Positions 328 through 60,590 of a stretch of 64,000 nt of DNA are shown here, piece after piece (positions within the stretch are counted from its first letter, which is position 1; every line of letters begins with the position of its first letter). The stretch is from Verrucomicrobiota bacterium (GTDB lineage Bacteria > Verrucomicrobiota > Verrucomicrobiia > Limisphaerales > UBA11358). The notes under the pieces are model-generated. The model searched no databases, was not told the origin of the DNA, and saw only the letters and a program-made list of their open reading frames with translations. The stretch lies in assembly GCA_049523455.1 (NCBI GenBank), contig JBEKMW010000009.1, positions 6,758-70,757 on the forward strand, written 5' to 3'. Position numbers and translations under genes: made by a program.

Positions 328-1040
328 GTGCGGCGACTTGTCGCCGCTTTCCTCGACGCGACGTGTCGCGTCGAAACAAAGCGCGGACACGTCCGCGCAC
401 TCCCAAAAACCTGCGGCTGGCCAGCCGGTTCATGGGGAGCCTCCTTTCGATCTTTCGCATGCACTGGGACCATGAACCCAGTAGGGACTTCTCCCTCTCC
501 CCGCCAAACGGGGAGGGCCGGGGTGAGGGGTCGTTTTCTGTCTTCTGCCTTCATTGGCTATTGGCTATCGGCTATTGGATGTCGAATGTTCCCCCGGTTC
601 ATGGAAAGCCTCCTTTCGCCTTTGCGCATGCACTGGGACCATGAACCTGACGTAAGCTGCCAGTCTGCCGAACCAGGTTCGCGGGCCACCTGCTGTCCCC
701 TCTCCTATTCCCTCGCCCATTCTGATGGGAGAGGGACAGGGTGAGGGTATTAACTCTGATGGGAGGGGAGAGGGTCAGGGTGAGGTGAGGGTTCCGCCTT
801 CATTGGCTATCGGCTATTGGCTATTGGCTATTGGATGTTCGATGTTCCCCCGGTTCATGGAAAGGGCCGGGGTGAGGAGCCTGATTCTATTTGGAACTTT
901 GAGCCTGCCGATGCCACACGACCCTCCGAATATGAATGCTGCCCGCCTGCCATGCCCTCGCCCATTCGGATGGGAGAGAGGGAGGCCGAAGGCGGGTGAG
1001 GGTGTTAATTCAAATCAGCAATCGGCAATCGGAAATGATC
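328..1040. repeat. Mosaic of intergenic repeat families: palindromes, GGTTCATGG...CCATGAACC hairpins, GGGAGAGGG/GGTGAGGG units and heptamer arrays
   Basis: Three back-to-back palindromes at 330-398. Hairpin copies at 427-478 and 596-647. (ATTGGCT)n-type heptamers at 551-580 and 801-836. (AATCGGC)n at 1013-1040. The ORFs predicted here (328..744, 725..1153 and others) only read through repeats. Confidence 0.85.
330..350 (+). terminator. Possible guaB terminator hairpin (also the first unit of a REP-like palindrome triplet)
   Basis: GCGGCGA (330-336), CTTG loop, TCGCCGC (341-347), followed by TTT. It is followed by the palindromes TCGACGCGAC/GTCGCGTCGA (353-374) and GCGCGGAC/GTCCGCGC (381-398). 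Confidence 0.35.
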
Positions 1041-1776: not shown

Positions 1777-1840
1777 AGAAGGGGTCGGTCAATAGTAATA
1801 TAGTATTTTAGTATTGACGATCGGGAATTAATTTTGCAGG

Positions 1841-2785
1841 ATGACAACCATGGCGCGGAAGCTGCGAGTGGAGTATGGCGGGGCGATTTATCATGTGATC
1901 AACCGCGGGGACCGGCGCGAACCCATCTTCAAGGATGACGAGGACCGGCGCCGTTTTCTGGCGACCCTGGGCGAAGCCTGTGCCAAAACCGACTGGCAGG
2001 TTCATGCGTTCTGCTTGATGCCCAACCATTTTCATTTAGTGGTCGAGACGCCCCAAGCGAACCTGGCGGCGGGGATGAAATGGTTTCTGGGGACCTACAC
2101 CAGCCGATTCAACCGGCGGCACAAACTGTTTGGCCATTTGTTCAGTGGTCGTTACAAGGCATTGATTGTGGATGGCAGTGGCAGCGGTTATCTGAAGACC
2201 GTCTGTGATTATGTGCATTTGAACCCGGTGCGAGCCCGGTTGCTCAAGGCGGAACAATCGCTGGGGGAGTATCGCTGGAGCAGTTGGCCCGAATACCTAA
2301 ACCGTCCGGGGCGGCGGCCGGCATGGTTGCGCGTGGACCGGTTGCTGGGTGAATATCGCGTGCCACGGGACAGTGCGGCGGGTCGGCGGCATCTGGCCGA
2401 GGCGTTGGAACAGCGCCGTGGGGCGGAAGCTGGCGACGCGTTCAAAGCGATCCGGCGAGGCTGGTTTTTCGGCAGCCCGGAGTTGAAGCAGGAATTGCTG
2501 GCGGCAATGTCGGAGCGGACGGGCCGATGGCATTATGGGGAGGCGGTGCAGGAGTCGTCGGTGGCCAGGGCGGAGCGTATGGTCCGGCAAGAAATGGGCC
2601 GGCGGAAATGGGATGAAGCGACCTTGGCTGCGCGGCGCAAAGGCGATGCCCAGAAGGTGGCCATGGCGCGGCGATTGCGGCGCGAGACGACGGTGACAGT
2701 GGCTTGGATAGCGGAACGGCTACGGATGGGAACCCCGACCTACCTGGCGCATTTGCTGTACTGGAACCGACGCAATGAAAAATAG
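1841..2785 (+). CDS. REP-associated tyrosine transposase (RAYT, IS200/Y1-like) with a C-terminal DnaA-type HTH tail
   Basis: N-terminal YHVINRG...HAFCLMPNHFHLVVETP (HuH motif) ...GHLFSGRYKA (catalytic Tyr region) ...YVHLNPVRA. C-terminus RRLRRETTVTVAWIAERLRMGT. Confidence 0.85.
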   Translation: MTTMARKLRVEYGGAIYHVINRGDRREPIFKDDEDRRRFLATLGEACAKTDWQVHAFCLMPNHFHLVVETPQANLAAGMKWFLGTYTSRFNRRHKLFGHLFSGRYKALIVDGSGSGYLKTVCDYVHLNPVRARLLKAEQSLGEYRWSSWPEYLNRPGRRPAWLRVDRLLGEYRVPRDSAAGRRHLAEALEQRRGAEAGDAFKAIRRGWFFGSPELKQELLAAMSERTGRWHYGEAVQESSVARAERMVRQEMGRRKWDEATLAARRKGDAQKVAMARRLRRETTVTVAWIAERLRMGTPTYLAHLLYWNRRNEK

Positions 2786-2915
2786 CATTATACCATTGAC
2801 CGACTCCCTCACATTCTGTCCCGCCCCCTGGCTGACGCCGTCCACCCGCGGCACAAATTCGTAACGTTTGGATTTCTGCATCCTACCTTCTGCCTTCTGC
2901 CTTTGTTCCGGCGGG

Positions 2916-9629: not shown

Positions 9630-10316
9630 TTAATAGTTATGTGGGCGTAAGTAACTATTGCGCCGAGACGTTTTAAGGGGCACAGGACCTGCGTCAATTG
9701 TGATGGGTTCTTCCAAATCCAATTGTGGCATGGACACGGAACACGCCGAAGACGTTTGTGCAATTGCTTTTGGAGCAGCAGGAGCGGCAACAACAGTGGC
9801 AGATGTAGGTGCTTCATCCAACAGTGCGGTATCCAATTCTGCAAAGGCCAGATTAAGACCATCTTGAACCGTGGTGAGGGCAGTATCCTGCATCAGTTGT
9901 GATTCAAAAGCTTCACCTACATTGGCGAGCGTGTTAGCCTGTGCCATTGTTTGTGCAATCTTCCAATCGGAACGCGTCTCGTCAATGATAGCGCTAAAGT
10001 CCTGCAACTTCACCTTGGATGCTTTGTATTTCTCGCCACGCAGTTCTACCAACGCCTTCAACTTGTTATACTTATCAAGCCATTGAGAAGGCTTGCCAGG
10101 ATAAGTGGCATCGTGCTCTTTGATTTGGTTGTATAGGTCTTGAAGGATGGCATATGTGGCATTAATATTTTCACGGGATGCGGCGAGTGCATTCATCTTG
10201 TCACGATAAATCATTTCGAGATTTTCAATGGGGTTCGCAGCAGCGACAGCCTTGAGTGCCTTGAGACGCCAATTGCCAACGAGACGAGCGAATGCGGGAA
10301 TGAGGTTGATGACCAC
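9630..10316 (-). CDS. PspA/IM30-like coiled-coil protein (tentative)
   Basis: GTG start. The N-terminal amphipathic segment VINLIPAFARLVGNWRLKALKAVAAANPIENLEMIYRDKMNAL parallels the PspA N-terminus ([34 protein letters not shown]). Helical repeats continue to about residue 165. Confidence 0.55.
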   Translation of the reverse strand: MVINLIPAFARLVGNWRLKALKAVAAANPIENLEMIYRDKMNALAASRENINATYAILQDLYNQIKEHDATYPGKPSQWLDKYNKLKALVELRGEKYKASKVKLQDFSAIIDETRSDWKIAQTMAQANTLANVGEAFESQLMQDTALTTVQDGLNLAFAELDTALLDEAPTSATVVAAPAAPKAIAQTSSACSVSMPQLDLEEPITIDAGPVPLKTSRRNSYLRPHNY

Positions 10317-10423
10317 GAATGCTACGGCCGAGAAAACGCCGAAAAAGGTGTCAACCCATAGAATGGTTCATTTTTCACGCGGATTGGTTTTGTTGCATCC
10401 ATTCGTGCAGCCGAGCATTTGCG

Positions 10424-10560
10424 CTCTTCCGACCTGCCTAAACCCACACGAGCCGTAATCGCTTTGAGCCAAAGCGTCGTCTCCCGGCGCAACCGCGCCG
10501 CCATCGTCAGCTTGTCCCGCCTGTTTTTCCGCTCTTCATCCACGTTCATCTGCGTCCATC
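10424..10560 (-). pseudogene. C-terminal remnant of a second RAYT-type transposase
   Basis: ...DKLTMAARLRRETTLWLKAITARVGLG parallels QKVAMARRLRRETTVTVAWIAERLRMG of the intact RAYT at 1841-2785. No catalytic domain. Confidence 0.6.
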
Positions 10561-10703
10561 CGCGGTTTACATTCTGCTCTTGCTTGTCATCCGTGTCCCT
10601 TCGTGTTGACCCCTGGCAAAAGCCCATTTTTGTGCCTCTTGTGCCTTGTTGCGGCTGATCCCGCCGTGGTTCAACATTTGGTTGCGCCCTTGCCACGCCG
10701 GGT

Positions 10704-11033
10704 TCATTCGTGGCTGGTAACATATAGGCTCATTTGTGCCGCCCGCGGGCCGTTCAAAACATTCGCGGCCTGCAATGCGCCGTGTTCTGTGAAAACACGG
10801 ACGCTCTTGAAAAACCTGAGGTTCTGCAAGGATGTCACAGTTTGTGATATGCTCAAAATCTCATCCCGGGCGAGGGTAAAGCTGAATTCCGTCGGAAAAC
10901 GGTCAAGGTTGCGCTTCACCGCTTGGTTCAAGGCGCGCGTTTCGACGCCATAAAGCCGGGCAAGATCAACATCCAGCAAGACACGCTGATCACGAACTGT
11001 GAGGATGCGAAGTTTGGGAATTAGGGATTTCAT
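10704..11033 (-). CDS. ORF6N (KilA-N-like) DNA-binding domain protein
   Basis: VRDQRVLLDVDLARLYGVETRALNQAVKRNLDRFPTEFSFTL...FTEHGALQAANVLNGPRA is the characteristic ORF6N signature. Confidence 0.85.
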   Translation of the reverse strand: MKSLIPKLRILTVRDQRVLLDVDLARLYGVETRALNQAVKRNLDRFPTEFSFTLARDEILSISQTVTSLQNLRFFKSVRVFTEHGALQAANVLNGPRAAQMSLYVTSHE

Positions 11034-11289: not shown

Positions 11290-11462
11290 CAATGAAAGAG
11301 CAGGATTCCGGTCGTCCCCAGGAACTCCCGTCAGGTTCAGGGGTTCAATGCGCGATGTTATCGGGGAAATCTCTCCCCGCCCAACGGGGAGAGGTTCTTT
11401 CCGAATTGAGTGCAAAGTCGAAATTTCTTTCCGTCGCCGCGCCTTTGCGGGAAATTCCTCGC

Positions 11463-18341: not shown

Positions 18342-21299
18342 TTACCCCGTGCAGGTGCACACCGGATTACGGTCGCCATAGACGTTGTCCACGCGGCCCA
18401 CGATGGGCCAGAATTTGTATTCGCGCAGGCCCGGTACCGGATACGCCGCCTGCTCGCGCGGGTACGGCCGGTCCCAATGGTCCGCCGTCACCACGTCCGC
18501 CGTGTGCGGCGCGTTTTTTAGCACGTTGTTCTGCCCATCCGCCGCGCCGGATTCAACCGCCGTCATCTCGGCGTGGATGGCGATCATCGCGTCGCAAAAA
18601 CGGTCCAATTCGCATTTTGCTTCGCTCTCGGTCGGCTCCACCATCAGCGTGCCCGCCACCGGAAACGACAACGTGGGCGCGTGAAATCCGTAATCCATCA
18701 GCCGCTTGGCCACGTCCTCGGCGGTGACCCGCTTGAACCCGCGCAATTCCAAAATGCACTCATGCGCCACCAGCCCGCCGGGCCCGCGATAGAGCGTGGG
18801 AAAATATTTCTCCAACTGCTTGGCGATATAATTCGCGTTCAAGATCGCGAAGCGTGTGGCCTCCGTCAGTCCCTCCGCTCCCATGGCGGCGATGTACGCC
18901 CAGGAAATCGGCAGGATGCCTGCGCTGCCCCAAGGCGCGCCGGCAACCGCGCCGATGTGTTGCTTCGAATGCTTAGGGCCCAACCGCCCTGTGAACACCG
19001 GATGGCTCGGCAGGAACTCGACCAAGTGTTTCGCCACGCCAATCGGCCCCACGCCCGGCCCGCCGCCGCCATGCGGGATGCAAAACGTCTTGTGCAGGTT
19101 CAAATGGCATACGTCCGCGCCGATGCGCCCCGGTGAGGTCAAGCCCGCTTGCGCGTTCAAGTTCGCGCCATCCATATAGACCTGTCCGCCGTGCGCGTGG
19201 ATGATTTCGCAAATCTCCCGGATCGTTTCCTCAAAAACTCCGTGCGTGGATGGATACGTGACCATCAAGCACGCCAATTCGTCTTTGTGCGCCTCGGCTT
19301 TGCTCCGCAAATCCGCCACGTCAATATTGCCATCGCTATCGCACGCCACGACAACGACTCTTAACCCGGCCATTGCGGCGCTGGCGGGATTGGTGCCGTG
19401 GGCGGACGTCGGAATCAGGCACACCTTCCGCTGCGCCTGGCCGCGCGACTCGTGATAGGCGCGAATAACCAGCAGGCCGGTGTATTCACCCTGCGAACCG
19501 GCATTGGGCTGCAAGCAAATCCCGGCGAACCCGGTGATTTCCGCCAGCCAGTCCTCCAAGTTCTGAAACAGGATTTGGTACCCGCGCGCCTGTCGTAACG
19601 GTGCAAACGGGTGAATGCCGGCAAATTCCGGCCACGATATCGGCAGCATTTCAAACGCCGCATTGAGCTTCATCGTGCACGAGCCCAGCGGTATCATCGA
19701 AGCCGTAAGCGACAAATCGCGCGATTCCAGTCGCTTGAGATACCGCATCATCTCGGTCTCGCTGTGGTAGCGGTTGAAAACTTTGTGAGTGAGGATTGCC
19801 GATTGCCGGTCGCCGACTGCCGATTGCCGATTGCCAGCCAGTTCGGCCACGGAAAATTTAACGGGTTTATTGCCATTGAAGATTTGCCAGATTTCGGCCA
19901 CGTCTTTGGCGCCGGTCGTTTCGTCCAACGAAATACCGATGGTGTGGCCGTCAACCACACGGAAATTGACGTGGCGTGCCTCGGCAAGTTTCACAATTTC
20001 CGCCGCGCGCTTGTTGCCAAGCGAAACAACGAGCGTGTCAAAGTAGGACAGGCGTCCCGCCTGTCCCGCTCCTTTTGCGCTTGCCTTTAAAGATGGAGAC
20101 AGGCGCGACCCGTCCTTCGTGGCAGGGCTACTGCGGAGGGCGGACGCCTGTCCTACGGTGAAGCCAAGTTTCCCCAAACCCGCGGCGAGCGTGGCCGTCA
20201 ATCCGTGGATGCGTTCCGCAATTTTCTTCAGCCCTTCCGGCCCGTGATAGACGGCGTACATCGCGGCCATGCTCGCCAGCAACGCTTGCGCCGTGCAGAT
20301 GTTGCTCGTCGCCCTCTCACGGCGGATGTGCTGCTCGCGCGTGCCGAGCGCCAACCGCAGCGCCGGCTGGCCGCGTGAATCCCGCGACACGCCTACCAGA
20401 CGGCCCGGCATCTGCCGCTTGAATTCGTCGCGCGTGGCGAAGAACGCCGCGTGCGGCCCGCCGTACCCCAGCGGCACCCCAAACCGTTGCGCGCTGCCCA
20501 CCGCCACGTCGGCGCCGAATTCACCCGGCGGTTGGATGAGCGTGAGCGCCAGCAAATCCGTGGCCACCGTCACCATCGCTCCGGCCGCATGCGCCTTCTC
20601 CACCAGCGACCCGTAATCCTCAATCGCTCCAAACGTGTCCGGATACTGCACCAGCACGCCAAAAACTTTTTCGCTGAACGGGAAATCTTCGGGAGACCCG
20701 GTCACCACTTCGATTCCCAATGCCCTTGCCCGCGTGCGGACGACCTCGATGTTTTGCGGATGGCAGGTTTCGGAAACCAGGAACACGTTGCGTTCCTCTC
20801 CGCCTTTGAGCCGATGGCACATCATCATGGCTTCCGCGCAAGCCGTGGCTTCGTCGAGCAAAGAGGCATTGGCCACCTCCAGCGCCGTGAGATCGCACAC
20901 CATCGTCTGGAAATTCAAGAACGCCTCGAGCCGCCCTTGCGAAATCTCGGCCTGATACGGTGTGTATTGCGTGTACCAGCCCGGATTTTCCAGCAGGTTG
21001 CGCTGGATGACCGCCGGCGTGATGCAATTGTAGTAGCCCATGCCGATGAACGAGCGGCAGACCCGGTTCTGCGAAGCGATCTCTTTTAGCGCCGCGAGCA
21101 CCTCATGTTCGCTGCGTGCCGGCGGCAGATTCAATTTCTTGTCGAGCCGGATTTTCCGCGGCACGGCGGCGTCCACCAGTGCGTCGAGGCTCGGAAAGCC
21201 GAGCAACGCGAGCATTTCCTTCGCCTCCCGGGCATTCGGTCCCACGTGGCGTCGTACAAATTCGTCTGGGTGTGCAGTTGGATTTTGGGTCACAGCCAT
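18342..21299 (-). CDS. gcvP: Glycine dehydrogenase (aminomethyl-transferring), fused P-protein
   Basis: 985 aa. [42 protein letters not shown] (PLP-Lys), [16 protein letters not shown]. Confidence 0.97.
19794..19835. repeat. Six tandem GATTGCC-type heptamers (42 bp) inside gcvP
   Basis: gattgcc gattgcc ggtcgcc gactgcc gattgcc gattgcc. Encodes [14 protein letters not shown] on the minus strand. Confidence 0.9.
20043..20156. repeat. 114-bp REPIN-like element with perfect 15-bp terminal inverted repeats, in frame within gcvP
   Basis: GTAGGACAGGCGTCC (20043-20057) and GGACGCCTGTCCTAC (20142-20156). 38 codons. Confidence 0.9.
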
Positions 21300-24656: not shown

Positions 24657-24862
24657 TGGAACTCCTCCGGTGGAAGGTTAATCGGTCGCTGAACTATGGT
24701 CCTGGGTCCCATGACCTGTCCCTAATAAAGCGCAAATGGCAACGACGCGCCAGTAAAATTTTGTAAAATTTTCAACGGCGGTGGTCATTGCGTTTGTCCT
24801 CGGATTGCCTTTCCGGCTTTCCAAGACGGTGGGGATGGCCTAATTTGTGTCATCCTCGTGCC

Positions 24863-26365
24863 ATGCCGAGTGTTTACCTCAAGACTTTTGGTTGCCAGAT
24901 GAACGAGCGCGACAGCGAAGCCGTCGCCGCGCAGCTCGTGGCCAGAGGCTACACGCTCGCGCCGTCCGAAGCGGTGGCCGACGTGATTTTGCTCAACACG
25001 TGCAGCGTGCGCGACCTCGCGGAGCAGAAGGCGCTCGGCAAAATGACGGCGCTCATCGGCGATACCCGCCGCACGCGACCCAAGGTGGTGCTCGGCTTCC
25101 TGGGTTGCATGGCCCAAAGCCGCGGACAGGAACTCATTGACCGGTTGCCGGACGTGGATTTGGTCCTCGGCACGCAAAAGTTTCATCGCGCAGCGGATTA
25201 CCTGGACGAAATCCTGTCCGGCCGGCGTGAAAAAATTGTGGACGTGGCGGAAGAGGACGGCAGTGAAGCCACGATCCGCGAGCACTTGCTTTATGGCAAT
25301 GCCGCGGCCAATGGCAATGGTCATAGGCCGCCGCCGGTGACGGCGTTTGTCAGCATCATGCAGGGCTGCAACCAGTATTGCACTTTTTGCATCGTGCCTT
25401 ACACGCGCGGCAGGGAGCGCAGCCGCACCATTCCCGACCTCGTGGCCGAATGCCGCCAACTGGTCGCCCAGGGCGCGAAGGAGATCACGCTGCTTGGCCA
25501 GATTGTGACCAGTTATGGCAAACGCGGAGGTGTGGCGGCGGGCATCCTGCCTGCCTTAGAGCCGGGCTTCCAGCCCGGCGGGATGACCGTGGATAAGTCC
25601 GACGGTTCAACCATTTCAGAGAACGGTCCGGGCGGCAGGATGCCGCCCTCTACGGCAGGCAGGATGCCTGCCGCCACGAGCCCTTTTGTCCACCTGCTTG
25701 AAGCCGTCCACGAGATCGAAGGATTGGAACGGATCCGCTTCACCTCGCCGCACCCGAAAGGTTACGGCGACGATTTGATTGACGCTTACGCGCGGCTGCC
25801 GAAATTGGTCGAAAGCGCGCACCTGCCCGTTCAAAGCGGCAGCAATCGCGTGTTGAAATTGATGCACCGCGGCTATACGCGCGAACGTTACCTCGGAATC
25901 ATCGAGAAATTGCGGCGCGCCCGCCCCGGCATGGGCATCAGCACCGACCTGATTGTGGGCTTTCCCGGCGAGACCGAAGATGACTTTGAACAAACCCTTT
26001 CCCTGGCGCGCGAAGTGGAATTTGACCAGGCATTCATTTTCAAATACTCGCAACGCCGCGACACGCCCGCGGCCCAAATGCCGGACCAGGTTCCGCAACG
26101 CCTCCGGGAGGCGCGCAATCAGCGATTGTTGGAAGTCATCAACGAAATCGCGGGGCGCAGACATGCCGCGTTCGTGGGCCGGCAAACGCAAATTCTGGTG
26201 GAAGGCCCGAGCAAAAAGAACCCGGCGCGGATGACCGGCCGGACGCGCTGCAACAAGATAGTGGTCTTTGACGGCTCGGACCGCCATCGCGGCCAGCTCC
26301 TGGACGTGCGAATCATCCGCGCCGGTTCCTTTACGCTTTACGGCGAGCCGGATGTTCTGGAATGA
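24863..26365 (+). CDS. miaB: tRNA-2-methylthio-N6-dimethylallyladenosine synthase
   Basis: YLKTFGCQMNERDSE, radical-SAM CNQYCTFCIVPYTRG, LPVQSGSNRVLKLMHR, TRAM tail. The ORF is open from 24788 but ATG 24863 fits. Confidence 0.95.
   Translation: MPSVYLKTFGCQMNERDSEAVAAQLVARGYTLAPSEAVADVILLNTCSVRDLAEQKALGKMTALIGDTRRTRPKVVLGFLGCMAQSRGQELIDRLPDVDLVLGTQKFHRAADYLDEILSGRREKIVDVAEEDGSEATIREHLLYGNAAANGNGHRPPPVTAFVSIMQGCNQYCTFCIVPYTRGRERSRTIPDLVAECRQLVAQGAKEITLLGQIVTSYGKRGGVAAGILPALEPGFQPGGMTVDKSDGSTISENGPGGRMPPSTAGRMPAATSPFVHLLEAVHEIEGLERIRFTSPHPKGYGDDLIDAYARLPKLVESAHLPVQSGSNRVLKLMHRGYTRERYLGIIEKLRRARPGMGISTDLIVGFPGETEDDFEQTLSLAREVEFDQAFIFKYSQRRDTPAAQMPDQVPQRLREARNQRLLEVINEIAGRRHAAFVGRQTQILVEGPSKKNPARMTGRTRCNKIVVFDGSDRHRGQLLDVRIIRAGSFTLYGEPDVLE
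25534..25675. repeat. About 142-bp multi-hairpin repeat element inside miaB
   Basis: GGCGGCGGGCATCCTGCCTGCC (25534-25555) matches the reverse complement of GGCAGGCAGGATGCCTGCCGCC (25654-25675) at 21 of 22 positions. Internal hairpins GCCGGGCttccaGCCCGGC and GGCGGCAggaTGCCGCC. Confidence 0.85.
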
Positions 26366-26409
26366 AATTTTCGTGTCCATTCCTGTCCATTCGTGGTTAA
26401 CTTTTCTCA

Positions 26410-26964
26410 ATGAAACTATCGCTGTTGACGATTTTGCTGGGGCTGGGCATGGCCGTGCCGCAGCTTTATGGCCTCGCCAACCCGCAAAGGTTCATGGCCA
26501 CGGCGCGCCAGTTCCCGCGCAATCTGCCCGTCGGCATCGCGCTCATGCTCCTGGGCACGGCGTGGTTTCTGTGGAACGTGAACATCGAGCCCATTGCGGA
26601 CTTCTCGGCCTATAAAACGCCCATGATGGCCGGATTCGCCGCGGTGGGCATCTTGTCGTGCATCTACGTGCAGGACTTTCTGGCCGTGCGCGGCCTGGCA
26701 GTGGTGATGCTGTTGCTGGCCAAATTGATGGTGGATACGGGGCGTCCTCATTTGGCGGAGTCGCCTTGGGTGCTGGTGATTCAGGTCTGGGCCTACGTGC
26801 TGGTGGTGGCGGGCATTTGGTTCACGGTCACACCGTGGAGGCTGCGTGACCTGGTTAACTTCGCCACGGCCAACGAAACGCGCGTGCGCGTCGGCAGCGC
26901 GATCCGGCTGGCGTTTGCCTGCTTTGTGGTCATCCTGGGCCTGACGGCGTTTCGCGCGATGTGA
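26410..26964 (+). CDS. Integral membrane protein, hypothetical (about 5 TM segments)
   Basis: 184 aa, hydrophobic. Its stop overlaps the start of the next gene (GTGA). Confidence 0.6.
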   Translation: MKLSLLTILLGLGMAVPQLYGLANPQRFMATARQFPRNLPVGIALMLLGTAWFLWNVNIEPIADFSAYKTPMMAGFAAVGILSCIYVQDFLAVRGLAVVMLLLAKLMVDTGRPHLAESPWVLVIQVWAYVLVVAGIWFTVTPWRLRDLVNFATANETRVRVGSAIRLAFACFVVILGLTAFRAM

Positions 26965-42808: not shown

Positions 42809-43945
42809 ATGAGTGATCCATCTTTCACACAACTATTTCGCCGAAGCCGGTATTCCCGGATTGGCCCGTCAGGAGACGATGAGCGGGATCAGGACCGCAA
42901 GGAAGTATTCGCCGTGGCAGCGGTAGGGTTTGCCTTAAAGCATGATGCCCAATTCCAAAAGAAATTCCTTGAAAAATTTGCCGGTATTGATGAAGATCCC
43001 GAAGATTACAAGCCAAGCCTCCAGCCGGCCGATTGCATAGACTTAAGGCTGGAAAACCCCCAAAAAAAGATTTTAGTCGCGGTTGAATTCAAAGTTGGCG
43101 CAGGACTGGCGGAACATCAAAATCCTTGGCTCGATTTCGACGAACGAAAGGCCAATCTCAGAAAACCCGATGACAAAGGTTTGCCGTTCTGGTGCAAAGC
43201 CAAAAATGGTTATGGCTTTCAATTCAGCAACGATTTTAAGGATTTTCCCACCGTCCATTATGTGATCGTTCAACAAAAAGAGCACGGAGATGTGCGTGAT
43301 GAGGAGCCAATCGAGCAACCTGGTAAAACTTTTCATTTGAAAAGGCGGAATTGGGAATGCCTTTTGCCACCGAATGCGGGGTTGGAGAGAGATTTAGTTA
43401 ATTCGTTGGGCGAACTTGGAATTACTGAACTCGTGGACTGGACTATGAAAACCATGAAAATAGACCCCGAATCCATTGAAGGTTGCTTCAAAGGATTGGA
43501 AGTAGGAGAAAAGCTCATCAAAATCCTCCTCTGGATTTCTAAGAAATTGAGGCTAACAGTCAAATTAGACGACTTTGTGACGGAAATATCGGGAGATTCG
43601 CGTTATTTAGGCATTGGTTTCTCAAATAAGGTTACGGCACGTCTATCGAAAGAACGATCTGCATATATCGGTAAGCGTGATTATGGCGCTGGATGGTTCG
43701 GCTATTCTTCGGAACAACAAGGAAAATTCCAACCCGAAGTGTGGTTTTATTGTAATGATAATATGAAGCCGAGGCTATTAAATATACTGAAAACTGAATT
43801 CAGTGATTCTGTAGAATTTCCTGAACCCCCGAAGGATGGGTGTGAAAACTACAATATTCGAATTCGCCGTTCGCAGACTTCGCGAAAGCCGGATGGGGCC
43901 TGGTTTTATGAAGTCTTAGGAATCAATGAATTTTCAAATGACTGA
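42809..43945 (+). CDS. Uncharacterised low-GC protein with a putative PD-(D/E)xK nuclease core
   Basis: 378 aa. ...[31 protein letters not shown]... fits D-x(n)-E-x-K on consecutive beta strands. Hand counts: line 43741-43800 has 17/60 G+C and line 43201-43260 has 22/60. Confidence 0.7.
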
Positions 43946-46427
43946 ACCCAAAGTTACACCGGAACTGGTTGCCAAACACAACCTGACGCCCGAGGAACAC
44001 CGGAAAATTCTCGAAGTGCTGGGCCGCGAGCCGAGCTATACCGAATTGGGCATCTTCTCGGTGATGTGGAGCGAACATTGCTGTTACAAGAGCACCCGCC
44101 CGCTGCTCAAAACCTTTCCGACCAAGTCCAAGAAAATCCTCGTCGGCGCCGGGGAAGAGAACGCCGGCATTATTGACATTGGCGACGGCCTGGCCATTGC
44201 GTTCAAAGTGGAGTCGCACAACCATCCGAGCGCGGTCGAGCCGTTCCAGGGGGCGGCCACGGGCGTCGGCGGCATCGTGCGGGATATTTTTACGATGGGA
44301 GCCAGGCCCATTTGCTCGGTAAATTCCTTGCGATTTGGACCGATCACCGGGAATTCGGAACGCGGAGCGCGGAGTGCGGAATCAAAAAGTGGGAAGGAAG
44401 CTGCGTTGAAGAACAACCGCCGCCTCTTTGCGGGCGTCGTCGCTGGCATTGCGCATTATGGTAATTGCTTTGGCATTCCCACCATCGCCGGCGAGGTTTA
44501 TTTCGACCCATCCTACGAGGGCAATCCGCTGGTCAACGCTTTTTGCCTGGGCGTCCTCCGCCACGAGCAAATCGCGCGCGGCGCCGCCAAAGGCATCGGC
44601 AATCCGGTCTTTTACGTGGGCCCGGCCACGGGCCGCGACGGTCTGGCCGGCGCCGCATTCGCCTCGCAGGATTTGACCGAGGAATCGGCCGAGCAGCAGC
44701 GCGGGGCGGTGCAGGTGGGCGATCCCTTCATGGAAAAACTCGTGTGCGAAGCCTGCCTGGAATTGCTGGCCACCGGCGCGGTGGCGGGCATTCAGGACAT
44801 GGGCGCGGCGGGCCTGACCTGTTCCACGTGCGAGACGGCGGCGCGCGCCGGCACGGGCATCGAAATCGAATTGGACAAGGTGCCGCAACGCGCGCCGAAC
44901 ATGAGCAGCTACGAAATCATGCTCAGCGAATCGCAGGAGCGGATGCTCATCATCGTTAACCGCGGCCGGGAAGCGGAGGTCAAACGCATTTTCGACAAAT
45001 GGGATTTGCCTTGGGCGGAAATCGGTTTCGTCACCGACACCGGCCGCATGGTGGTCAAACACCACGGCCAGGTGGTGGCGGATATTCCGGCCAGGAAAAT
45101 CGCCGATGAGTCGCCGGTTTGCCAGCGGGAGGCGGCCGAGCCGGAGTACCTGAAGGACGTGCGGGCCTTTCGGCTGGATGGAATTGCCGATTGCCAATCA
45201 CCGGTTGACGATTTGAAGAAGTTGCTGGCGTGGCCGACCATCGCGTCGAAAAACTGGGTGTACCGCCAATACGACCACATGGTGCGGGATGGTTCGGTGG
45301 TTTGTCCCGGCAGCGACGCGGCCGTGTTGCGCATCAAGGCGGACAGTTTGCCGGATCTGGGGAGCGCGCCCGCCCCGGGCGCCGCGGTTGACGCCCCGTC
45401 AACCGCAAAAGCCGGCGACATGTCAGCCGCCAGCGACGCACTTTCAGTTCCCGAGAAATTTATCGCCCTGACCTCGGATGGCAACGGCGCTTACGTCTAT
45501 CTCGATCCCTACGAAGGGGCGAAGGTCGTCATGGCTGAAGCGTGCCGCAACCTGGCGTGCTCCGGCGCCGTGCCATTGGGGACGACGGACAATCTCAACA
45601 TGCCCAGCCCCCTCAAGCCGGAACTGTTCTGGCAAATCAAGGAATCGGTGCGCGGCTTGGCCGACGCGTGCCGGGCCTTCAACGCGCCCGTCACCGGCGG
45701 CAATTGCTCGCTCTACAACCAGAGCCCCAACGGCCCGATTGACCCGACGCCCACCGTCGTGGTGGTGGGGTTGGTCGAAAAACCGGAACACGTGACGACG
45801 CAGTGGTTCAAGGACGAAGGCGACGCGATCATTTTGCTGGGTGAAGCGGTGGATGCGAGCGATCCGCTGTCCGGCCTGGGCGGTTCCGCTTATCTGCAAG
45901 TGATCCATGGCCAAAAGACCGGCAGACCGCCGCGTTGTGATCTCGAGCAGGCCAAAACCCTGCACACGACGCTGCTGGGCTTGATCCATTCCGGACTGGT
46001 AAAAAGCGCGCATGATTGCAGTGAAGGCGGTTTGGCGGTTTGCCTGGCCGAAAGCTGCATTTCACAACTCGCCGCCCGCGAAACGCCCCGCCTCATCGGG
46101 GCCACGGTGGATTTGAGCCTCGTAGGACAGGCTTCCAGCCTGTCTCAAACGAAAAAAGAAGATGGAGACAGGCAGGATGCCCGTCCTCCGGCGCGCTTGG
46201 ATGGCCTGCTCTTTGGCGAAGCCCAGTCGCGCGTGGTTATCACCTGTCACCCGCTGAATGCGGTGAAAGTGGTCGAACGCGCGAAGTTGATGGGTGTGCC
46301 TGCGGCACAAATCGGCAAAGTGGGCGGTGACCAGTTGACCATAAAAACCGCCGCCGGCGAAATCAGCGCGCCAGTGGCCGAATTGCACGACGTCTGGTGG
46401 AACGCCATCGCGCGGGCGATGGCCTGA
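43926..46427 (+). CDS. purL: Phosphoribosylformylglycinamidine synthase subunit PurL
   Basis: 833 aa. [52 protein letters not shown]. The start may be ATG 43938. Confidence 0.96.
44356..44383. repeat. Four CGGANNG heptamers inside purL
   Basis: cggaacg cggagcg cggagtg cggaatc, within a segment of about 19 aa ([19 protein letters not shown]) that is absent from B. subtilis PurL as I recall it. Confidence 0.8.
45339..45455. repeat. 117-bp (39-codon) insertion in purL carrying one arm of the 12269-12412 element
   Basis: GGGGAGCGCGCCCGCCCCGGGCG (45359-45381) against GGGGAGCACGCCCGCCCCGGGCG (12269-12291). Confidence 0.8.
46122..46190. repeat. In-frame copy, inside purL, of the same element family as gcvP 20043-20156
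   Basis: GTAGGACAGGCTTCCAGCCTGTCT...AAGATGGAGACAGGCAGGATGCCCGTCCTCCG against GTAGGACAGGCGTCCCGCCTGTCC...AAGATGGAGACAGGCGCGACCCGTCCTTCG. Confidence 0.85.
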
Positions 46428-57649: not shown

Positions 57650-59017
57650 ATGCGACAGATTCTCGCCATAGCTGGATTGACTTGGAAGGCCGCCTTCCGA
57701 TTCCGGCTGTTCCTCGTCATGGCGGTGCTCTTGCTCGCGTCCGTGGTTGGCCTGCCATTGATCATCAAGGACGATGGCACGGCGCGCGGTTTCACGCAGA
57801 TCCTGTTGACCTACACCCTGAGCATCATCACGATGCTGCTCGGGCTTTCGACGCTGTGGCTGGCGTGCGGAACGCTGGCCCGGGACATCGAGGAATGCCA
57901 GATCCAGGTGGTGGCCACCAAGCCCGTCGCCCGCTGGCAGATCTGGCTGGGGAAATGGCTGGGCCTGGTGTCGCTCAACGCGGCGTTGCTGGCTTTGTCG
58001 GGGGCCTGCGTCTATGGGCTCTTATACTGGCGTTCCGCAAGGCTCCCGGTGGCCCAACAGAAGATTTTGCGCCAGGAAGTGCTGGTGGCGCGCGGTTCGG
58101 CCAAGCCATCCAACTTAAACGCGGAGATTGAAGCCCAAACCGACCAGGCTTTGAGGCGTGTGCTCACGAACACACCCGTGGCTCCGGCGGAAATCCCGGC
58201 GGTGCGCACGCAAATTCGCGAGCAGGTCAAAATGCAGTATGAACTGGTGCCGCCGGATTATGCGCACCGGTGGCAGATTGATCTCGGTTTGGCGAAAAAT
58301 TATTTGCGCGACCAGCCGCTCCAATTGCGCGTGAGATTCAACACCGCCGCGTGGGACGTAAACAGCACCTACCTGGCGTATTGGCGAGTGGGCGCGACGA
58401 ATTCGCCCAATGTCTGGGAACCGCCCGTGCCGATGAGTCTCTCCGCAAACACGTTCCATGAATTTCAAATCTCCCCAAATCTTTTCGACGCCCATGGCGT
58501 GTTAACGGTCATTTTTATCAATCCCAACAATACGGCGCTTACCTTTCCGCTCGATGAGGGAATTGAAGTGCTGTATCCGCAGGGCGGTTTTGCGCCGAAC
58601 TTTGCGCGCGGCCTGGGAATCATATGGTGTTGGATGGCGCTGCTCGCCGCGCTGGGATTGACGGCGGCAAGTTTTCTTTCGTTTCCGGTGGCGGCGTTCT
58701 TCTCGCTGGCCGTCCTGCTGGTCGTCCTGTCTGGCGGCGTGCTCGCCGAGGCAGCGGATGCCGGCACAATCGGCAACGGAGCCCCCGGGCCTGTTGACGT
58801 CGTGGTGATTCCGATCTTCAAGGCCCTGCTGGTGCCCATCCATCTAATCGGGGAGTTTTCGCCCATTGACGCGTTGAGTACGGGGCGCAGCATCCCGTGG
58901 AGTGAGTTGGGGGCGGCGTTCGGCCAGATCGTACTGCTCTTTGGCGGTGTGACGGCCATCATCGGCATCGCGCTGTTGCATCGGCGCGAACTGGCCACGG
59001 CCCAAGGCAGCCAATGA
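57650..59017 (+). CDS. ABC-2-type permease-like membrane protein with a large extracytoplasmic loop
   Basis: MRQILAIAGLTWKAAFRFRLFLVMAVLLL...ECQIQVVATKPVARWQIWLGKWLG. The ORF is open from 57131, but ATG 57650 follows the ATPase stop. Confidence 0.8.
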   Translation: MRQILAIAGLTWKAAFRFRLFLVMAVLLLASVVGLPLIIKDDGTARGFTQILLTYTLSIITMLLGLSTLWLACGTLARDIEECQIQVVATKPVARWQIWLGKWLGLVSLNAALLALSGACVYGLLYWRSARLPVAQQKILRQEVLVARGSAKPSNLNAEIEAQTDQALRRVLTNTPVAPAEIPAVRTQIREQVKMQYELVPPDYAHRWQIDLGLAKNYLRDQPLQLRVRFNTAAWDVNSTYLAYWRVGATNSPNVWEPPVPMSLSANTFHEFQISPNLFDAHGVLTVIFINPNNTALTFPLDEGIEVLYPQGGFAPNFARGLGIIWCWMALLAALGLTAASFLSFPVAAFFSLAVLLVVLSGGVLAEAADAGTIGNGAPGPVDVVVIPIFKALLVPIHLIGEFSPIDALSTGRSIPWSELGAAFGQIVLLFGGVTAIIGIALLHRRELATAQGSQ

Positions 59018-60565: not shown

Positions 60566-60590
60566 GTAGGACAGGCGTCGCGCCTGTCTC
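60566..60590. repeat. Intergenic half-copy of the GTAGGACAGGC...GCCTGTC element family
   Basis: GTAGGACAGGCGTCGCGCCTGTCTC forms the hairpin GACAGGCG/CGCCTGTC. Confidence 0.8.

What the first reader, a model, noticed from the sequence alone, without database searches (positions are those of the whole stretch)
25534..25675. Multi-hairpin repeat of about 142 bp expands a loop of MiaB by about 45 residues
- Inverted ends: GGCGGCGGGCATCCTGCCTGCC (25534-25555) matches the reverse complement of GGCAGGCAGGATGCCTGCCGCC (25654-25675) at 21 of 22 positions.
- Internal hairpins: two more lie between them (GCCGGGCttccaGCCCGGC and GGCGGCAggaTGCCGCC).
- Extra residues: the encoded peptide GVAAGILPALEPGFQPGGMTVDKSDGSTISENGPGGRMPPSTAGRMPAATS lies between LLGQIVTSYG and FVHLL. 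From memory, E. coli MiaB has only about 12 residues there ([21 protein letters not shown]).
- Note: the GGCAGGCAGGATGCCTGCC-type palindrome is a classic intergenic REP shape. Here it is coding.
Basis: partly seen in the sequence, partly recalled or inferred. Interest (0 to 1): 0.7.

Follow-up and report, generated by a model that had tools for sequence, protein, structure and literature searches.

The report
Mobile palindromic repeat inside miaB
A 146-bp selfish palindromic DNA repeat of the REP type, common in Verrucomicrobia, sits in-frame inside the tRNA-modifying enzyme MiaB and adds a floppy loop of about 45 residues; this kind of insertion is already known, but here closely related strains carry different repeat families at the same spot.

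Summary
Window 25532-25677 is a strong multi-hairpin palindrome (RNA fold -112.6 kcal/mol, z -9.45) lying in-frame in miaB.

It is one copy of a dispersed 130-200-bp element built from four GTAG-tagged REP stem-loops. More than 120 loci carry it, mostly in Verrucomicrobiota MAGs. Most copies are intergenic. Others are in-frame, always in the same reading frame, in MetH, UvrB, kinases, FolC and other genes. In one MAG two copies flank a bona fide RAYT transposase.

The insert lies inside the radical-SAM core, in the loop between a beta strand and the next helix. It does not lie between the core and the TRAM domain. Distant relatives have a 13-residue loop there.

At the same loop, relatives carry at least 11 unrelated palindromic cassette types. 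Proteins 96-99% identical elsewhere differ in cassette. In one near-identical 21-kb pair the cassette was swapped by a 0.7-kb recombination tract. GcvP loops behave the same way.

In-frame GTAG REPs in Verrucomicrobia (Opitutus terrae) and Rickettsia RPEs are published, so this is a new member of a known kind. The cassette hot spot with strain-level exchange is the less expected part.

The parts
24863..26365 (+). miaB gene (tRNA i6A37 methylthiotransferase), 500 aa. The ATG at 24863 is the likely start, giving MPSVYLKTFGCQMN.
   Evidence: Pfam UPF0004 4-103, Radical_SAM 163-381, TRAM 437-495. E = 5e-93 to PDB 7MJV MiaB. Homologues are named MiaB by their sources.
25532..25677 (+). Whole inserted element ('type A'): four REP stem-loops plus a variable centre. 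It is translated in-frame as VAAGILPALEPGFQPGGMTVDKSDGSTISENGPGGRMPPSTAGRMPAAT.
   Evidence: 44-nt inverted arms; fold z = -9.45; aligns end to end with the consensus of 80 copies from other loci; nhmmer 149 bits.
25532..25555 (+). Outer left REP: tag GTGG (25532-25535, a degenerate GTAG) plus hairpin GGCGGGCA-TCC-TGCCTGCC (25537-25555).
   Evidence: Family consensus GTAG-CGGCAGGCATCCTGCCTGCC. Helix 1 is 99.1% paired, with 3 pairs changed on both sides.
25556..25579 (+). Inner left REP: tag TTAG (a degenerate GTAG; GTAG in most other copies) plus hairpin GCCGGGC-TTCCA-GCCCGGC (25561-25579).
   Evidence: In helix 2 the loop-closing pair switches between UA:36, GC:25 and AU:17.
25580..25629 (+). 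Variable centre of the element, with the partly conserved motifs AGTTCRA and ATTTCG seen in the miaB copies.
   Evidence: Alignment of miaB orthologue copies and of 80 copies. Its length varies between copies.
25630..25653 (+). Inner right REP (inverted): hairpin GGGCGGCA-GGA-TGCCGCCC (25630-25648) plus CTAC tag (25650-25653).
   Evidence: In helix 3 four pairs change on both sides.
25654..25677 (+). Outer right REP (inverted): hairpin GGCAGGCA-GGA-TGCCTGCC (25654-25672) plus CCAC (25674-25677, a degenerate CTAC).
   Evidence: In helix 4 three pairs change on both sides.
46122..46189 (+). Second in-frame REP dimer in the window, in purL: GTAG + GACAGGC-TTCCA-GCCTGTC ... GACAGGCA-GGA-TGCCCGTC + CTCC. 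Encoded peptide [23 protein letters not shown].
   Evidence: It lies in a 49-residue segment that corresponds to 15 residues of PDB 3VIU PurL.
20043..20156 (-). Third in-frame REP dimer, in gcvP (gene on the - strand): GTAG + GGACAGGCG-TCC-CGCCTGTCC ... CCTAC. Encoded peptide [37 protein letters not shown].
   Evidence: Relatives have a loop of about 5 residues or other cassettes at this site.
60566..60588 (+). Ordinary extragenic single REP of the same GACAGGCG family, 8 nt after the stop of ORF 59014-60558.
1778..2810 (+). IS200/RAYT-like Y1 transposase gene (1841-2785) flanked by 32-nt inverted repeats (1778-1809 and 2779-2810). It is not flanked by type-A elements.
   Evidence: Pfam Y1_Tnp 56.9 bits (cut-off 23). 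NCBIfam RAYT model 55.9 bits, below its cut-off of 80. Inverted repeats.

Best explanation
Window 25532-25677 is a copy of a dispersed, non-autonomous palindromic element of the GTAG-tagged REP superfamily. It resembles a REP cluster or REPIN. Its layout is two REP stem-loops in direct order on the left, a variable centre, and the same two inverted on the right.

- **Where it landed.** It sits, or was brought in by recombination, in the loop between a beta strand (EITLLGQIVTSYG) and the next helix (FVHLLEAV) of the radical-SAM core of miaB.
- **Why it survives.** In this orientation and frame it has no stop codon. It is read through and gives a Gly/Pro/Ala-rich, probably disordered loop of about 45 residues that the enzyme tolerates. 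The ribosome translates it and nothing removes it.
- **What maintains it.** The conserved unit is each local REP hairpin. Element-level processes (recognition and copying by a RAYT-type tyrosine transposase acting on single-stranded hairpins, and gene conversion) most likely maintain these stems, rather than selection on the protein.
- **Turnover at the site.** The loop is permissive, and many REP families have occupied it. Cassettes decay by internal deletion and are exchanged between lineages by homologous recombination.

Shown: the repeat family, its hairpin covariation, its in-frame presence in several genes, its RAYT association in one genome, and one recombination tract. Inferred: translation of the insert, neutrality, and RAYT as the mobilising enzyme in this particular genome.
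For: **Repeat family**
Most are Verrucomicrobiota or Limisphaerales MAGs, with many loci per MAG and inverted doublets 105-175 bp apart.
- The consensus of 80 copies is GTAG-hairpin-GTAG-hairpin ... hairpin-CTAC-hairpin-CTAC.

**Hairpins are the conserved unit**
- Local stems: 95.2% of cells paired, 12 pairs and 137 cells changed on both sides, covariation score 0.182 against 0.073 in shuffles (0/500).
- Long-range arm pairing: 7 pairs changed on both sides against 6.3 expected (224/500).

**Intergenic copies**
- L086:13228-13361 and L012:11383-11527, plus most of the 95 copies.

**In-frame copies in other real genes, all in the frame VAAGILPAVEPGxxPGG...PGGKMPPSTAG..PAAT**
- MetH, UvrB, two Ser/Thr kinases, a PSD/PSCyt protein (two copies), FolC-like, HisKA kinase, NarJ-like and MnmC-like proteins.

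**Frames**
- Only 2 of 6 frames of the window copy are open.
- All 20 coding copies use frame +0. Frame +2 is open equally often in non-coding copies and is never used in coding copies.

**RAYT association**
- L204:1266-1937 scores 93.3 bits on NCBIfam REP_Tyr_transpos (cut-off 80).
- Full type-A elements flank it on both sides.

**Ancestral state and location**
- Relatives at 62-72% identity have a 13-residue loop; 7MJV has 9 residues there.
- Radical_SAM spans 163-381. AF2 gives pLDDT below 50 and no secondary structure for 213-270.

**Read-through**
- The 8 miaB copies are 162-186 nt long, all multiples of 3 and free of stops despite a diverged centre.
- All 34 close tblastn-found loci keep the frame across the loop.

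**Turnover**
- Identity with the loop masked is 0.862 within cassette types and 0.864 between them. Pairs 96-99% identical outside the loop carry different cassettes.
- L211 and L212 are identical over 21.4 kb except for about 10 scattered sites and two divergent patches, the larger a 710-nt tract centred on the cassette.
Against: - No direct evidence of translation (no proteome or ribosome profiling).
- No type-A-flanked RAYT is seen in the 64-kb window. The only Y1 transposase there has different ends and scores below the RAYT cut-off.
- The window copy has degenerate tags (GTGG, TTAG, CCAC), so it may no longer be mobile.
- The insertion follows the strand that, in radical-SAM enzymes, carries a SAM-contacting motif. 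This is established knowledge and was not checked on coordinates here, so a functional effect on MiaB cannot be excluded.
- The AF2 model is poor overall (mean pLDDT 62.4), so 'disordered' rests on weak ground.
- Why at least 11 families share one site is not explained by simple tolerance.
Confidence: 0.85

Rival explanations
1. The insert is kept because it acts at the nucleic-acid level inside miaB. The stable hairpins in the mRNA or DNA would slow ribosomes or polymerases, set mRNA stability, or act as a recombination or gyrase site, and so tune MiaB expression.
For: - Very stable fold, -112.6 kcal/mol, z = -9.45.
- The palindrome is kept in all 8 orthologue copies.
- Recombination breakpoints cluster at the cassette in two near-identical pairs.
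- REPs in general are proposed to act on mRNA stability and supercoiling (PMC3733652).
Against: - The same stems are equally conserved in intergenic copies and in unrelated genes, so the conservation belongs to the element, not to miaB.
- Wobble pattern: in the left arm the variable pair is G-U on the sense strand (37 of 80 copies). In the right arm the equivalent pair is an A-C mismatch on that strand (37 of 80). This fits a DNA inverted repeat, not one optimised RNA strand.
- Relatives do well with unrelated cassettes or none.
Confidence: 0.12
2. The roughly 45-residue loop is an adaptive protein feature, for example a new interaction surface or regulatory loop of MiaB. The palindrome would be only the fossil of how it arose.
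For: - The peptide ends (VAAGILPAVEPG......PGGKMPPSTAGRMPAAT) are conserved in 27 of 120 relatives.
- Coding copies always use one frame.
Against: - The conserved peptide ends coincide exactly with the REP stems, which are equally conserved in non-coding copies.
- The centre is hypervariable.
- Near-identical MiaB proteins carry unrelated cassettes or remnants, for example P0017 and P0076.
- The same peptide appears in unrelated enzymes.
- The segment is predicted to be unstructured.
Confidence: 0.06
3. The segment is not translated. It would be removed from the mRNA (like an intron) or bypassed by the ribosome, so MiaB would be made without it.
For: A strong hairpin that brings the two ends together is the geometry seen in some bypass or splicing elements. 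This is a resemblance only.
Against: - No Rfam family matches (best hit E = 0.16, a miRNA precursor model).
- Every copy inside a gene keeps the frame and lacks stops, although frames +1, -1 and -2 are usually closed. That is unexpected if the segment were never read.
- Lengths vary in multiples of 3.
Confidence: 0.03
4. The insert is an assembly or binning artefact (a chimeric contig).
For: The source is evidently a metagenome-type assembly. Repeats can mislead assemblers.
Against: - The exact protein is on record in 2 contigs.
- Eight independent assemblies carry an orthologous copy at the same codon position.
- The frame is intact on both sides.
Confidence: 0.01

Closest known systems
GTAG-tagged REP repeats, including intragenic ones in Opitutus terrae (Di Nocera, De Gregorio and Rocco 2013, BMC Genomics 14:522, PMC3733652)
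   Same: - Short G+C-rich stem-loops (7-8 bp stems here, 6-9 bp in the paper) tagged by GTAG.
- Many dispersed copies, often as inverted dimers that can fold into larger structures.
- Flank RAYT genes.
- Found in-frame inside genes that encode known proteins. The paper reports the largest number of intragenic GTAG REPs in a verrucomicrobium, including PurL.
   Different: - The unit here is a fixed four-REP compound of 130-200 bp that encodes about 45-60 residues. The paper's intragenic O. terrae inserts encode mostly 7-38 residues.
- MiaB is not in their list.
- The paper does not describe one site occupied by many families, or strain-level exchange of cassettes.
Rickettsia palindromic elements (RPE-1 and relatives; Ogata et al. 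2000, recalled from memory and cited in PMC3733652)
   Same: - Palindromic repeats of about 100-150 bp inserted in-frame in housekeeping genes.
- One usable frame.
- Add about 45 residues, thought to lie on the protein surface without destroying function.
   Different: - No sequence relationship was tested or is expected, and the phylum is different.
- RPE-4 and RPE-6 carry the CGTC tag (PMC3733652), whereas this element carries GTAG.
- RPE insertion sites are described as stable between species. Here the site turns over among close strains.
REPINs and their RAYT transposases (Bertels and Rainey 2011, PMC3116915)
   Same: - Two REP units in inverted orientation around a spacer, forming a long hairpin.
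- Populations of copies within a genome.
- A RAYT gene flanked by the cognate repeats (L204).
   Different: - Each arm here holds two different REP hairpins.
- REPINs are described as extragenic, whereas a sizeable minority of these copies are in-frame in genes.
- Covariation does not support the long-range hairpin beyond chance.
Bacterial MITEs (reviewed in PMC10969869)
   Same: Small, non-coding-capacity element with inverted ends, dispersed, sometimes intragenic.
   Different: - No target-site duplication was seen at the miaB junctions.
- The ends are REP hairpins with GTAG tags, not the terminal inverted repeats of a DDE-type IS.

Membership tests
GTAG-tagged REP superfamily (PMC3733652) | Short stem-loop with a 6-9 bp G+C-rich stem | tested here: met
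   Four hairpins with 7-8 bp stems and 3-5 nt loops at 25537-25555, 25561-25579, 25630-25648 and 25654-25672. 95.2% of cells are paired across 80 copies.
GTAG-tagged REP superfamily (PMC3733652) | Conserved GTAG tetranucleotide at one end of the stem-loop | tested here: met
   The family consensus has GTAG 5' of both left hairpins and CTAC 3' of both right hairpins. In the window copy the tags are GTGG, TTAG, CTAC and CCAC, so only one of four is intact. GTGG is a common variant in the family alignment, and the paper notes GTGG in an O. terrae family.
GTAG-tagged REP superfamily (PMC3733652) | Many dispersed copies per genome, often as inverted dimers | tested here: met
The copy number in the window's own genome could not be counted; the window holds only this copy.
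GTAG-tagged REP superfamily (PMC3733652) | Association with a RAYT (REP-associated tyrosine transposase) flanked by the repeats | tested here: met
   Met for the family in one MAG: L204:1266-1937 scores 93.3 bits (cut-off 80) and is flanked by type-A copies at L204:1056-1225 and 1937-2105. Not shown for the window's own genome.
REPIN (PMC3116915) | Two REPs in inverted orientation whose pairing into one long hairpin is the conserved, replicating unit | tested here: inconclusive
   The inverted arrangement is present and the predicted fold is a long hairpin. Two-sided changes for the long-range pairing do not exceed shuffles (7 against 6.3; 224/500), whereas the local stems do.
REPIN (PMC3116915) | Extragenic location | tested here: not met
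   This copy, and at least 12 non-miaB copies, are in-frame in Pfam-confirmed genes.
Rickettsia palindromic elements (RPE) | Sequence membership in one of the Rickettsia RPE families | not tested
   No RPE sequences were on hand. The Rfam scan of the region found nothing. Different phylum and a different tag type argue against membership. Only the mode of existence is alike.
Rickettsia palindromic elements (RPE) | In-frame insertion in functional genes, translated, on the protein surface | tested here: inconclusive
   In-frame and free of stops: met. Translation: not testable here. Surface location: low-confidence AF2 loop and a loop position by alignment to 7MJV.
MITE | Terminal inverted repeats with a target-site duplication, related to a DDE-type IS | tested here: not met
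   No duplication is seen at the junctions when near-identical alleles are compared. The ends are GTAG-REP hairpins.
MiaB methylthiotransferase (host gene) | UPF0004 + Radical_SAM (CxxxCxxC) + TRAM architecture | tested here: met
   Pfam hits at 4-103, 163-381 and 437-495. CNQYCTFC motif is present. E = 5e-93 to 7MJV.

The most novel reading that the evidence does not exclude
Certain permissive loops of housekeeping enzymes in Limisphaerales act as landing pads for palindromic REP cassettes. Examples are the strand-to-helix loop of the MiaB radical-SAM core and two loops of GcvP.

- At least 11 unrelated cassette families alternate at the same codon position.
- They differ between strains that are otherwise 98-100% identical.
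- They are passed between lineages on short recombination tracts of about 0.7 kb.

If real and general, this would be a previously undescribed, population-level, in-frame cassette polymorphism inside essential enzymes. It could be driven by REP-targeted insertion, by hairpin-induced breakage and repair, or by diversifying selection.
Probability: 0.4. Interest if true: 0.65.

Novelty: new member of a known kind. Interest (0 to 1): 0.5.

Why it matters
- **Annotation.** Peptides such as AAGILPAVEPG...GRMPAAT, GQASRLS...[25 protein letters not shown] or GAHGVTRPT in verrucomicrobial proteins are translated REP DNA, not protein motifs. They should be masked in homology searches, domain calling and phylogeny.
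- **Biology.** Selfish hairpin elements, usually called extragenic, routinely live inside enzymes in a free-living phylum, not only in Rickettsia.
- **A natural experiment.** Alternative cassettes at one loop in near-identical strains show how much foreign sequence a radical-SAM core loop can bear. They also show that palindromes and recombination tracts coincide within genes.
- **A handle on the transposase.** The RAYT-flanked copies give a way to test REP mobilisation outside Proteobacteria.

Tried and rejected
- **Rfam.** A scan of 24700-26500 at E <= 1 gave only a chance hit to a plant miRNA precursor model (17.8 bits against a gathering score of 297). No known RNA family matches.
- **Single long hairpin as the functional unit.** Rejected. 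Covariation for long-range pairing is at shuffle level, while the local stems are well supported.
Rejected by the Pfam coordinates and the 7MJV alignment.
- **First structure job.** It was rerun with database proteins only. The resulting model is mediocre (mean pLDDT 62.4), is used only for the local loop call, and was not sent to fold search.
- **Neighbour-joining tree of 120 MiaB proteins with the loop masked.** It gave no clean mapping of cassette types. It was replaced by within-type versus between-type identities and by direct DNA comparison of near-identical pairs.
- **Generic hairpin scan of the window** (stem >= 8, G-T pairs allowed). It found 115 hairpins against 71-97 in Markov-shuffled sequence, too unspecific to count REPs. 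Only the GTAG-tagged GACAGGC-family hits were kept.
- **Inverted repeat inside the TRAM-coding part of miaB (26210-26337).** Complementarity falls to 12-17 of 25 at synonymous sites in orthologues. It is a by-product of the NPAR / RAG codons, not a feature.
- **Literature.** Searches for cassette hot spots or in-frame REPINs found nothing beyond PMC3733652. The library is partial.
Full report
**1.

The sequence at 25534-25675 is as described.
- The two 22-mers are reverse complements at 21 of 22 positions.
- The inverted repeat in fact runs over 44-nt arms (25532-25575 and 25634-25677) at 84% complementarity.
- Two further perfect hairpins lie between the arms.
- Folded as RNA, 25520-25690 gives -112.6 kcal/mol against -71.5 +/- 4.35 for 200 dinucleotide-preserving shuffles. 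That is z = -9.45, and no shuffle does as well.
- The 19-mer GGCAGGCAGGATGCCTGCC with up to 3 mismatches occurs 4 times in the window against 0.02 expected. Three of the four are self-matches of the element's two arms; the fourth is in purL (section 5).

The segment lies in-frame in a 500-residue MiaB (ORF 24863-26365).
- Pfam places UPF0004 at 4-103, Radical_SAM at 163-381 and TRAM at 437-495.
- Against the solved Bacteroides uniformis MiaB (7MJV), query residues 219-272 correspond to chain residues 221-229.
- The insert is therefore about 45 residues long and lies inside the radical-SAM core. It sits between the strand EITLLGQIVTSYG and the helix FVHLLEAV, not at the core/TRAM junction.
- An AlphaFold2 model (mean pLDDT only 62.4) gives pLDDT below 50 and no secondary structure for 213-270, between strand 207-211 and helix 274-283.

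**2. It is a copy of a dispersed repeat**

*MiaB relatives with the same insert.*
- MiaB relatives are Verrucomicrobiota / Limisphaerales proteins.
- Eight orthologues with the same kind of insert were fetched as DNA.
- All keep the multi-hairpin palindrome, at -92 to -116 kcal/mol. Their lengths of 162-186 nt are all multiples of three, and the centre is strongly diverged.

*Copies outside miaB.*
- The same element occurs outside genes at L086:13228-13361 and at L012:11383-11527, directly after the miaB stop of another lineage.
Most are in Verrucomicrobiota MAGs, with many loci per MAG. Pairs of opposite-strand matches lie 105-175 bp apart.
- A few record titles name other phyla. Some of these MAG labels look unreliable and were not pursued.
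- A profile built from the miaB copies finds 95 full-length copies in the DNA held.

*Consensus.* Eighty copies align to GTAG-CGGCAGGCATCCTGCCTGCC-GTAG-A-GCCGGGCnTCCnGCCCGGCGG ... CCGGGCGGCAGGATGCCGCCCT-CTAC-GGCAGGCAGGATGCCTGCCG-CTAC.
- This is four stem-loops, each with a GTAG tag: two in direct order on the left, and the same two inverted on the right.
- In the window copy the tags read GTGG, TTAG, CTAC and CCAC.

**3. What is conserved is each local hairpin**

*Local stems.*
- 95.2% of cells pair, and 12 of 32 pairs show changes on both sides (137 cells).
- The covariation score is 0.182 against 0.073 in shuffles (0/500). Slid controls fall to 31-46% pairing.
- The loop-closing pairs switch among A-T, G-C and T-A.

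*Long-range pairing.*
- Pairing of the left arm with the right arm has 7 pairs changed on both sides against 6.3 expected (224/500).

*Wobble pattern.*
- A frequent variant gives G-T wobble in the left arm on the top strand (37 of 80 copies).
- The equivalent pair in the right arm is an A-C mismatch on that strand (37 of 80), which is G-T on the bottom strand.
- This is the pattern of a DNA inverted repeat in which each REP is 'read' on its own GTAG strand. It is not the pattern of one optimised RNA.

**4. It is often in-frame in genes, and one frame is used**

- Only two of the six frames of the window copy are open.
- Full-length copies lie in long ORFs and read VAAGILPAVEPG[FV][QP]PGG...PGG[KR]MPPSTAG..PAAT.
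- Pfam confirms the following hosts:
  - MetH, with the copy between the homocysteine and pterin domains;
  - UvrB;
  - two Ser/Thr kinases, with the copy inside the kinase domain;
  - a PSD/PSCyt protein with two copies;
  - a FolC-like ligase, a HisKA kinase, a NarJ-like protein and an MnmC-like protein.
- In 65 copies without coding context, frame +0 is open in 41, frame +2 in 41 and the reverse AAGILPA frame in 18.
- All 20 coding copies use +0. This points to a filter on what is translated.

**5. Link to a transposase and to known families**

- A motif scan of all held DNA found Y1-transposase-like ORFs.
- L204:1266-1937 comes from MAG CAVYLE01, which also has the UvrB copy. It reaches 93.3 bits on NCBIfam REP_Tyr_transpos, above the cut-off of 80.
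- Full type-A elements flank it at 1056-1225 and 1937-2105, and its stop codon lies within a GTAG tag. This is the classic RAYT-plus-REP arrangement.
- The window itself has a Y1_Tnp gene (1841-2785) with 32-nt inverted ends of a different kind. It scores below the RAYT cut-off.
- Di Nocera et al. 2013 (PMC3733652) defined the GTAG-tagged and CGTC-tagged REP superfamilies and listed intragenic REPs. They found the most intragenic GTAG REPs in the verrucomicrobium Opitutus terrae, PurL included. MiaB is not in their table.
- Rickettsia RPEs are the classic parallel.
- The window has two more in-frame GTAG REP dimers, in purL (46122-46189) and gcvP (20043-20156). It also has an ordinary extragenic REP at 60566-60588.

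**6. The less expected part: one loop, many cassettes**

*Many types at one position.*
- Among the 120 best MiaB relatives, the same loop holds at least 11 unrelated inserts besides type A.
- Examples are SLAPRGTSGERVGARG..LLTPALSSFGEEREK, GRAELPLGQDAQQRVPT, GRAGSPLPA..GAHGVTRPT, GGASVPASRLVSSLAPP, SSRE..STLDPRPST, EKRDEWRVARD..VTRHPS and WSSSFSL..DTLKRELQ. There are also compounds and nested forms, remnants, and one empty 12-residue loop.
- Relatives at 62-72% identity have the 13-residue loop GKRDIPxRDGKSA.
- The cassettes examined as DNA are hairpins, several with GTAG tags.
- Types C, D, G and L have copies elsewhere in the sampled loci.

*No tie to MiaB phylogeny.*
- With the loop masked, identity within a cassette type (0.862) equals identity between types (0.864).
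- Proteins 96-99% identical outside the loop carry different cassettes.

*Two near-identical pairs compared as DNA.*
- L209 and L210 are identical from nt 18 to 659. They are unrelated from 660 to 764, and about 2% diverged after that.
- L211 and L212 are syntenic over 21.4 kb. Apart from about 10 scattered differences they differ in two patches.
- One patch is an ordinary tract in the BipA-like GTPase gene. The other is a 710-nt tract (10225-10934) whose flanks differ mostly at third codon positions and whose centre is the cassette.
- Cassette alleles therefore move by homologous recombination. How so many families first came to occupy the same site is not resolved. Nested forms suggest that resident REPs attract further REPs.

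*GcvP behaves the same way.* Two loops carry several alternative cassettes, against short forms in other relatives. The behaviour is not special to MiaB.

**7. Verdict**

It is an in-frame copy of a RAYT-associated, GTAG-tagged REP compound element. It is most likely translated as a tolerated, disordered loop in the radical-SAM core of MiaB.

The kind is known, from intragenic REPs in Opitutus and from Rickettsia RPEs. This is a new member, with a new host gene and a fixed four-REP architecture.

The cassette hot spot with strain-level exchange goes beyond what I found described and deserves a proper census.

No Rfam family matches. Nothing suggests splicing or bypass, and nothing suggests an artefact.

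Noticed in passing
window 46122-46189 (purL, ORF 43926-46427 +): In-frame GTAG REP dimer (GTAG-GACAGGC-TTCCA-GCCTGTC ... GACAGGCA-GGA-TGCCCGTC-CTCC). Against PDB 3VIU, PurL also has two other extra segments (aa ~141-160 and 474-514). The second contains a 10-bp-stem hairpin at 45384-45406.
   Followed up: partly
window 20043-20156 and ~19790-19840 (gcvP, ORF 18342-21299 -): In-frame REP dimer (peptide [12 protein letters not shown]) and a second short insert, [14 protein letters not shown]. In 120 relatives both loops hold many alternative cassettes or none. Two relatives (P0150, P0186) carry an insert of about 60 residues whose sequence looks like a ribbon-helix-helix protein.
   Followed up: partly
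window 1778-2810: IS200/RAYT-like Y1 transposase gene (1841-2785; Pfam Y1_Tnp 56.9 bits) with a long C-terminal extension. It is bounded by 32-nt inverted repeats instead of REPs, so it resembles a TIR-flanked tyrosine transposase.
   Followed up: partly
window 60566-60588: Single extragenic REP (GTAG-GACAGGCG-TC-GCGCCTGTC) 8 nt after a stop codon and just upstream of a RimO-like paralogue (60623-62377, 584 aa). That paralogue is about 140 residues longer than typical RimO, including a long segment between its N-terminal and radical-SAM domains.
   Followed up: no
window 495-517 and 11368-11396: Two hairpins of another shared family (CTCTCCCCGCC-AAAC-GGGGAGAG). They resemble the DNA behind the 'LSP..GEERE' cassette type seen in MiaB relatives.
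   Followed up: no
window 26210-26337 (TRAM-coding part of miaB): 25-nt inverted repeat at 84% complementarity. In orthologues the complementarity drops to 12-17 of 25 at synonymous sites, so it is a by-product of the codons for KNPARM and IRAGSF.
   Followed up: yes
L081:11635-12258; L211 and L212:440-1021; L081:9859-9886: RAYT-like ORFs (59 and 48 bits, below the cut-off) lie close to miaB in relatives. One is immediately downstream of miaB in L081, and a type-C REP lies just upstream of that miaB. The miaB neighbourhood seems rich in REPs in this clade.
   Followed up: no
L092:990-5543 and L197 (orthologous PSD/PSCyt protein): One gene carries two separate full-length type-A elements in-frame, at the same positions in two MAGs.
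   Followed up: partly
L106, L116, L120, L154 and other genome-contig loci: Several MAGs that carry the element are titled Klebsiella, Bifidobacterium, Proteobacteria or Haliangiales. Their genes and repeats look verrucomicrobial, so these are probably mislabelled bins.
   Followed up: no
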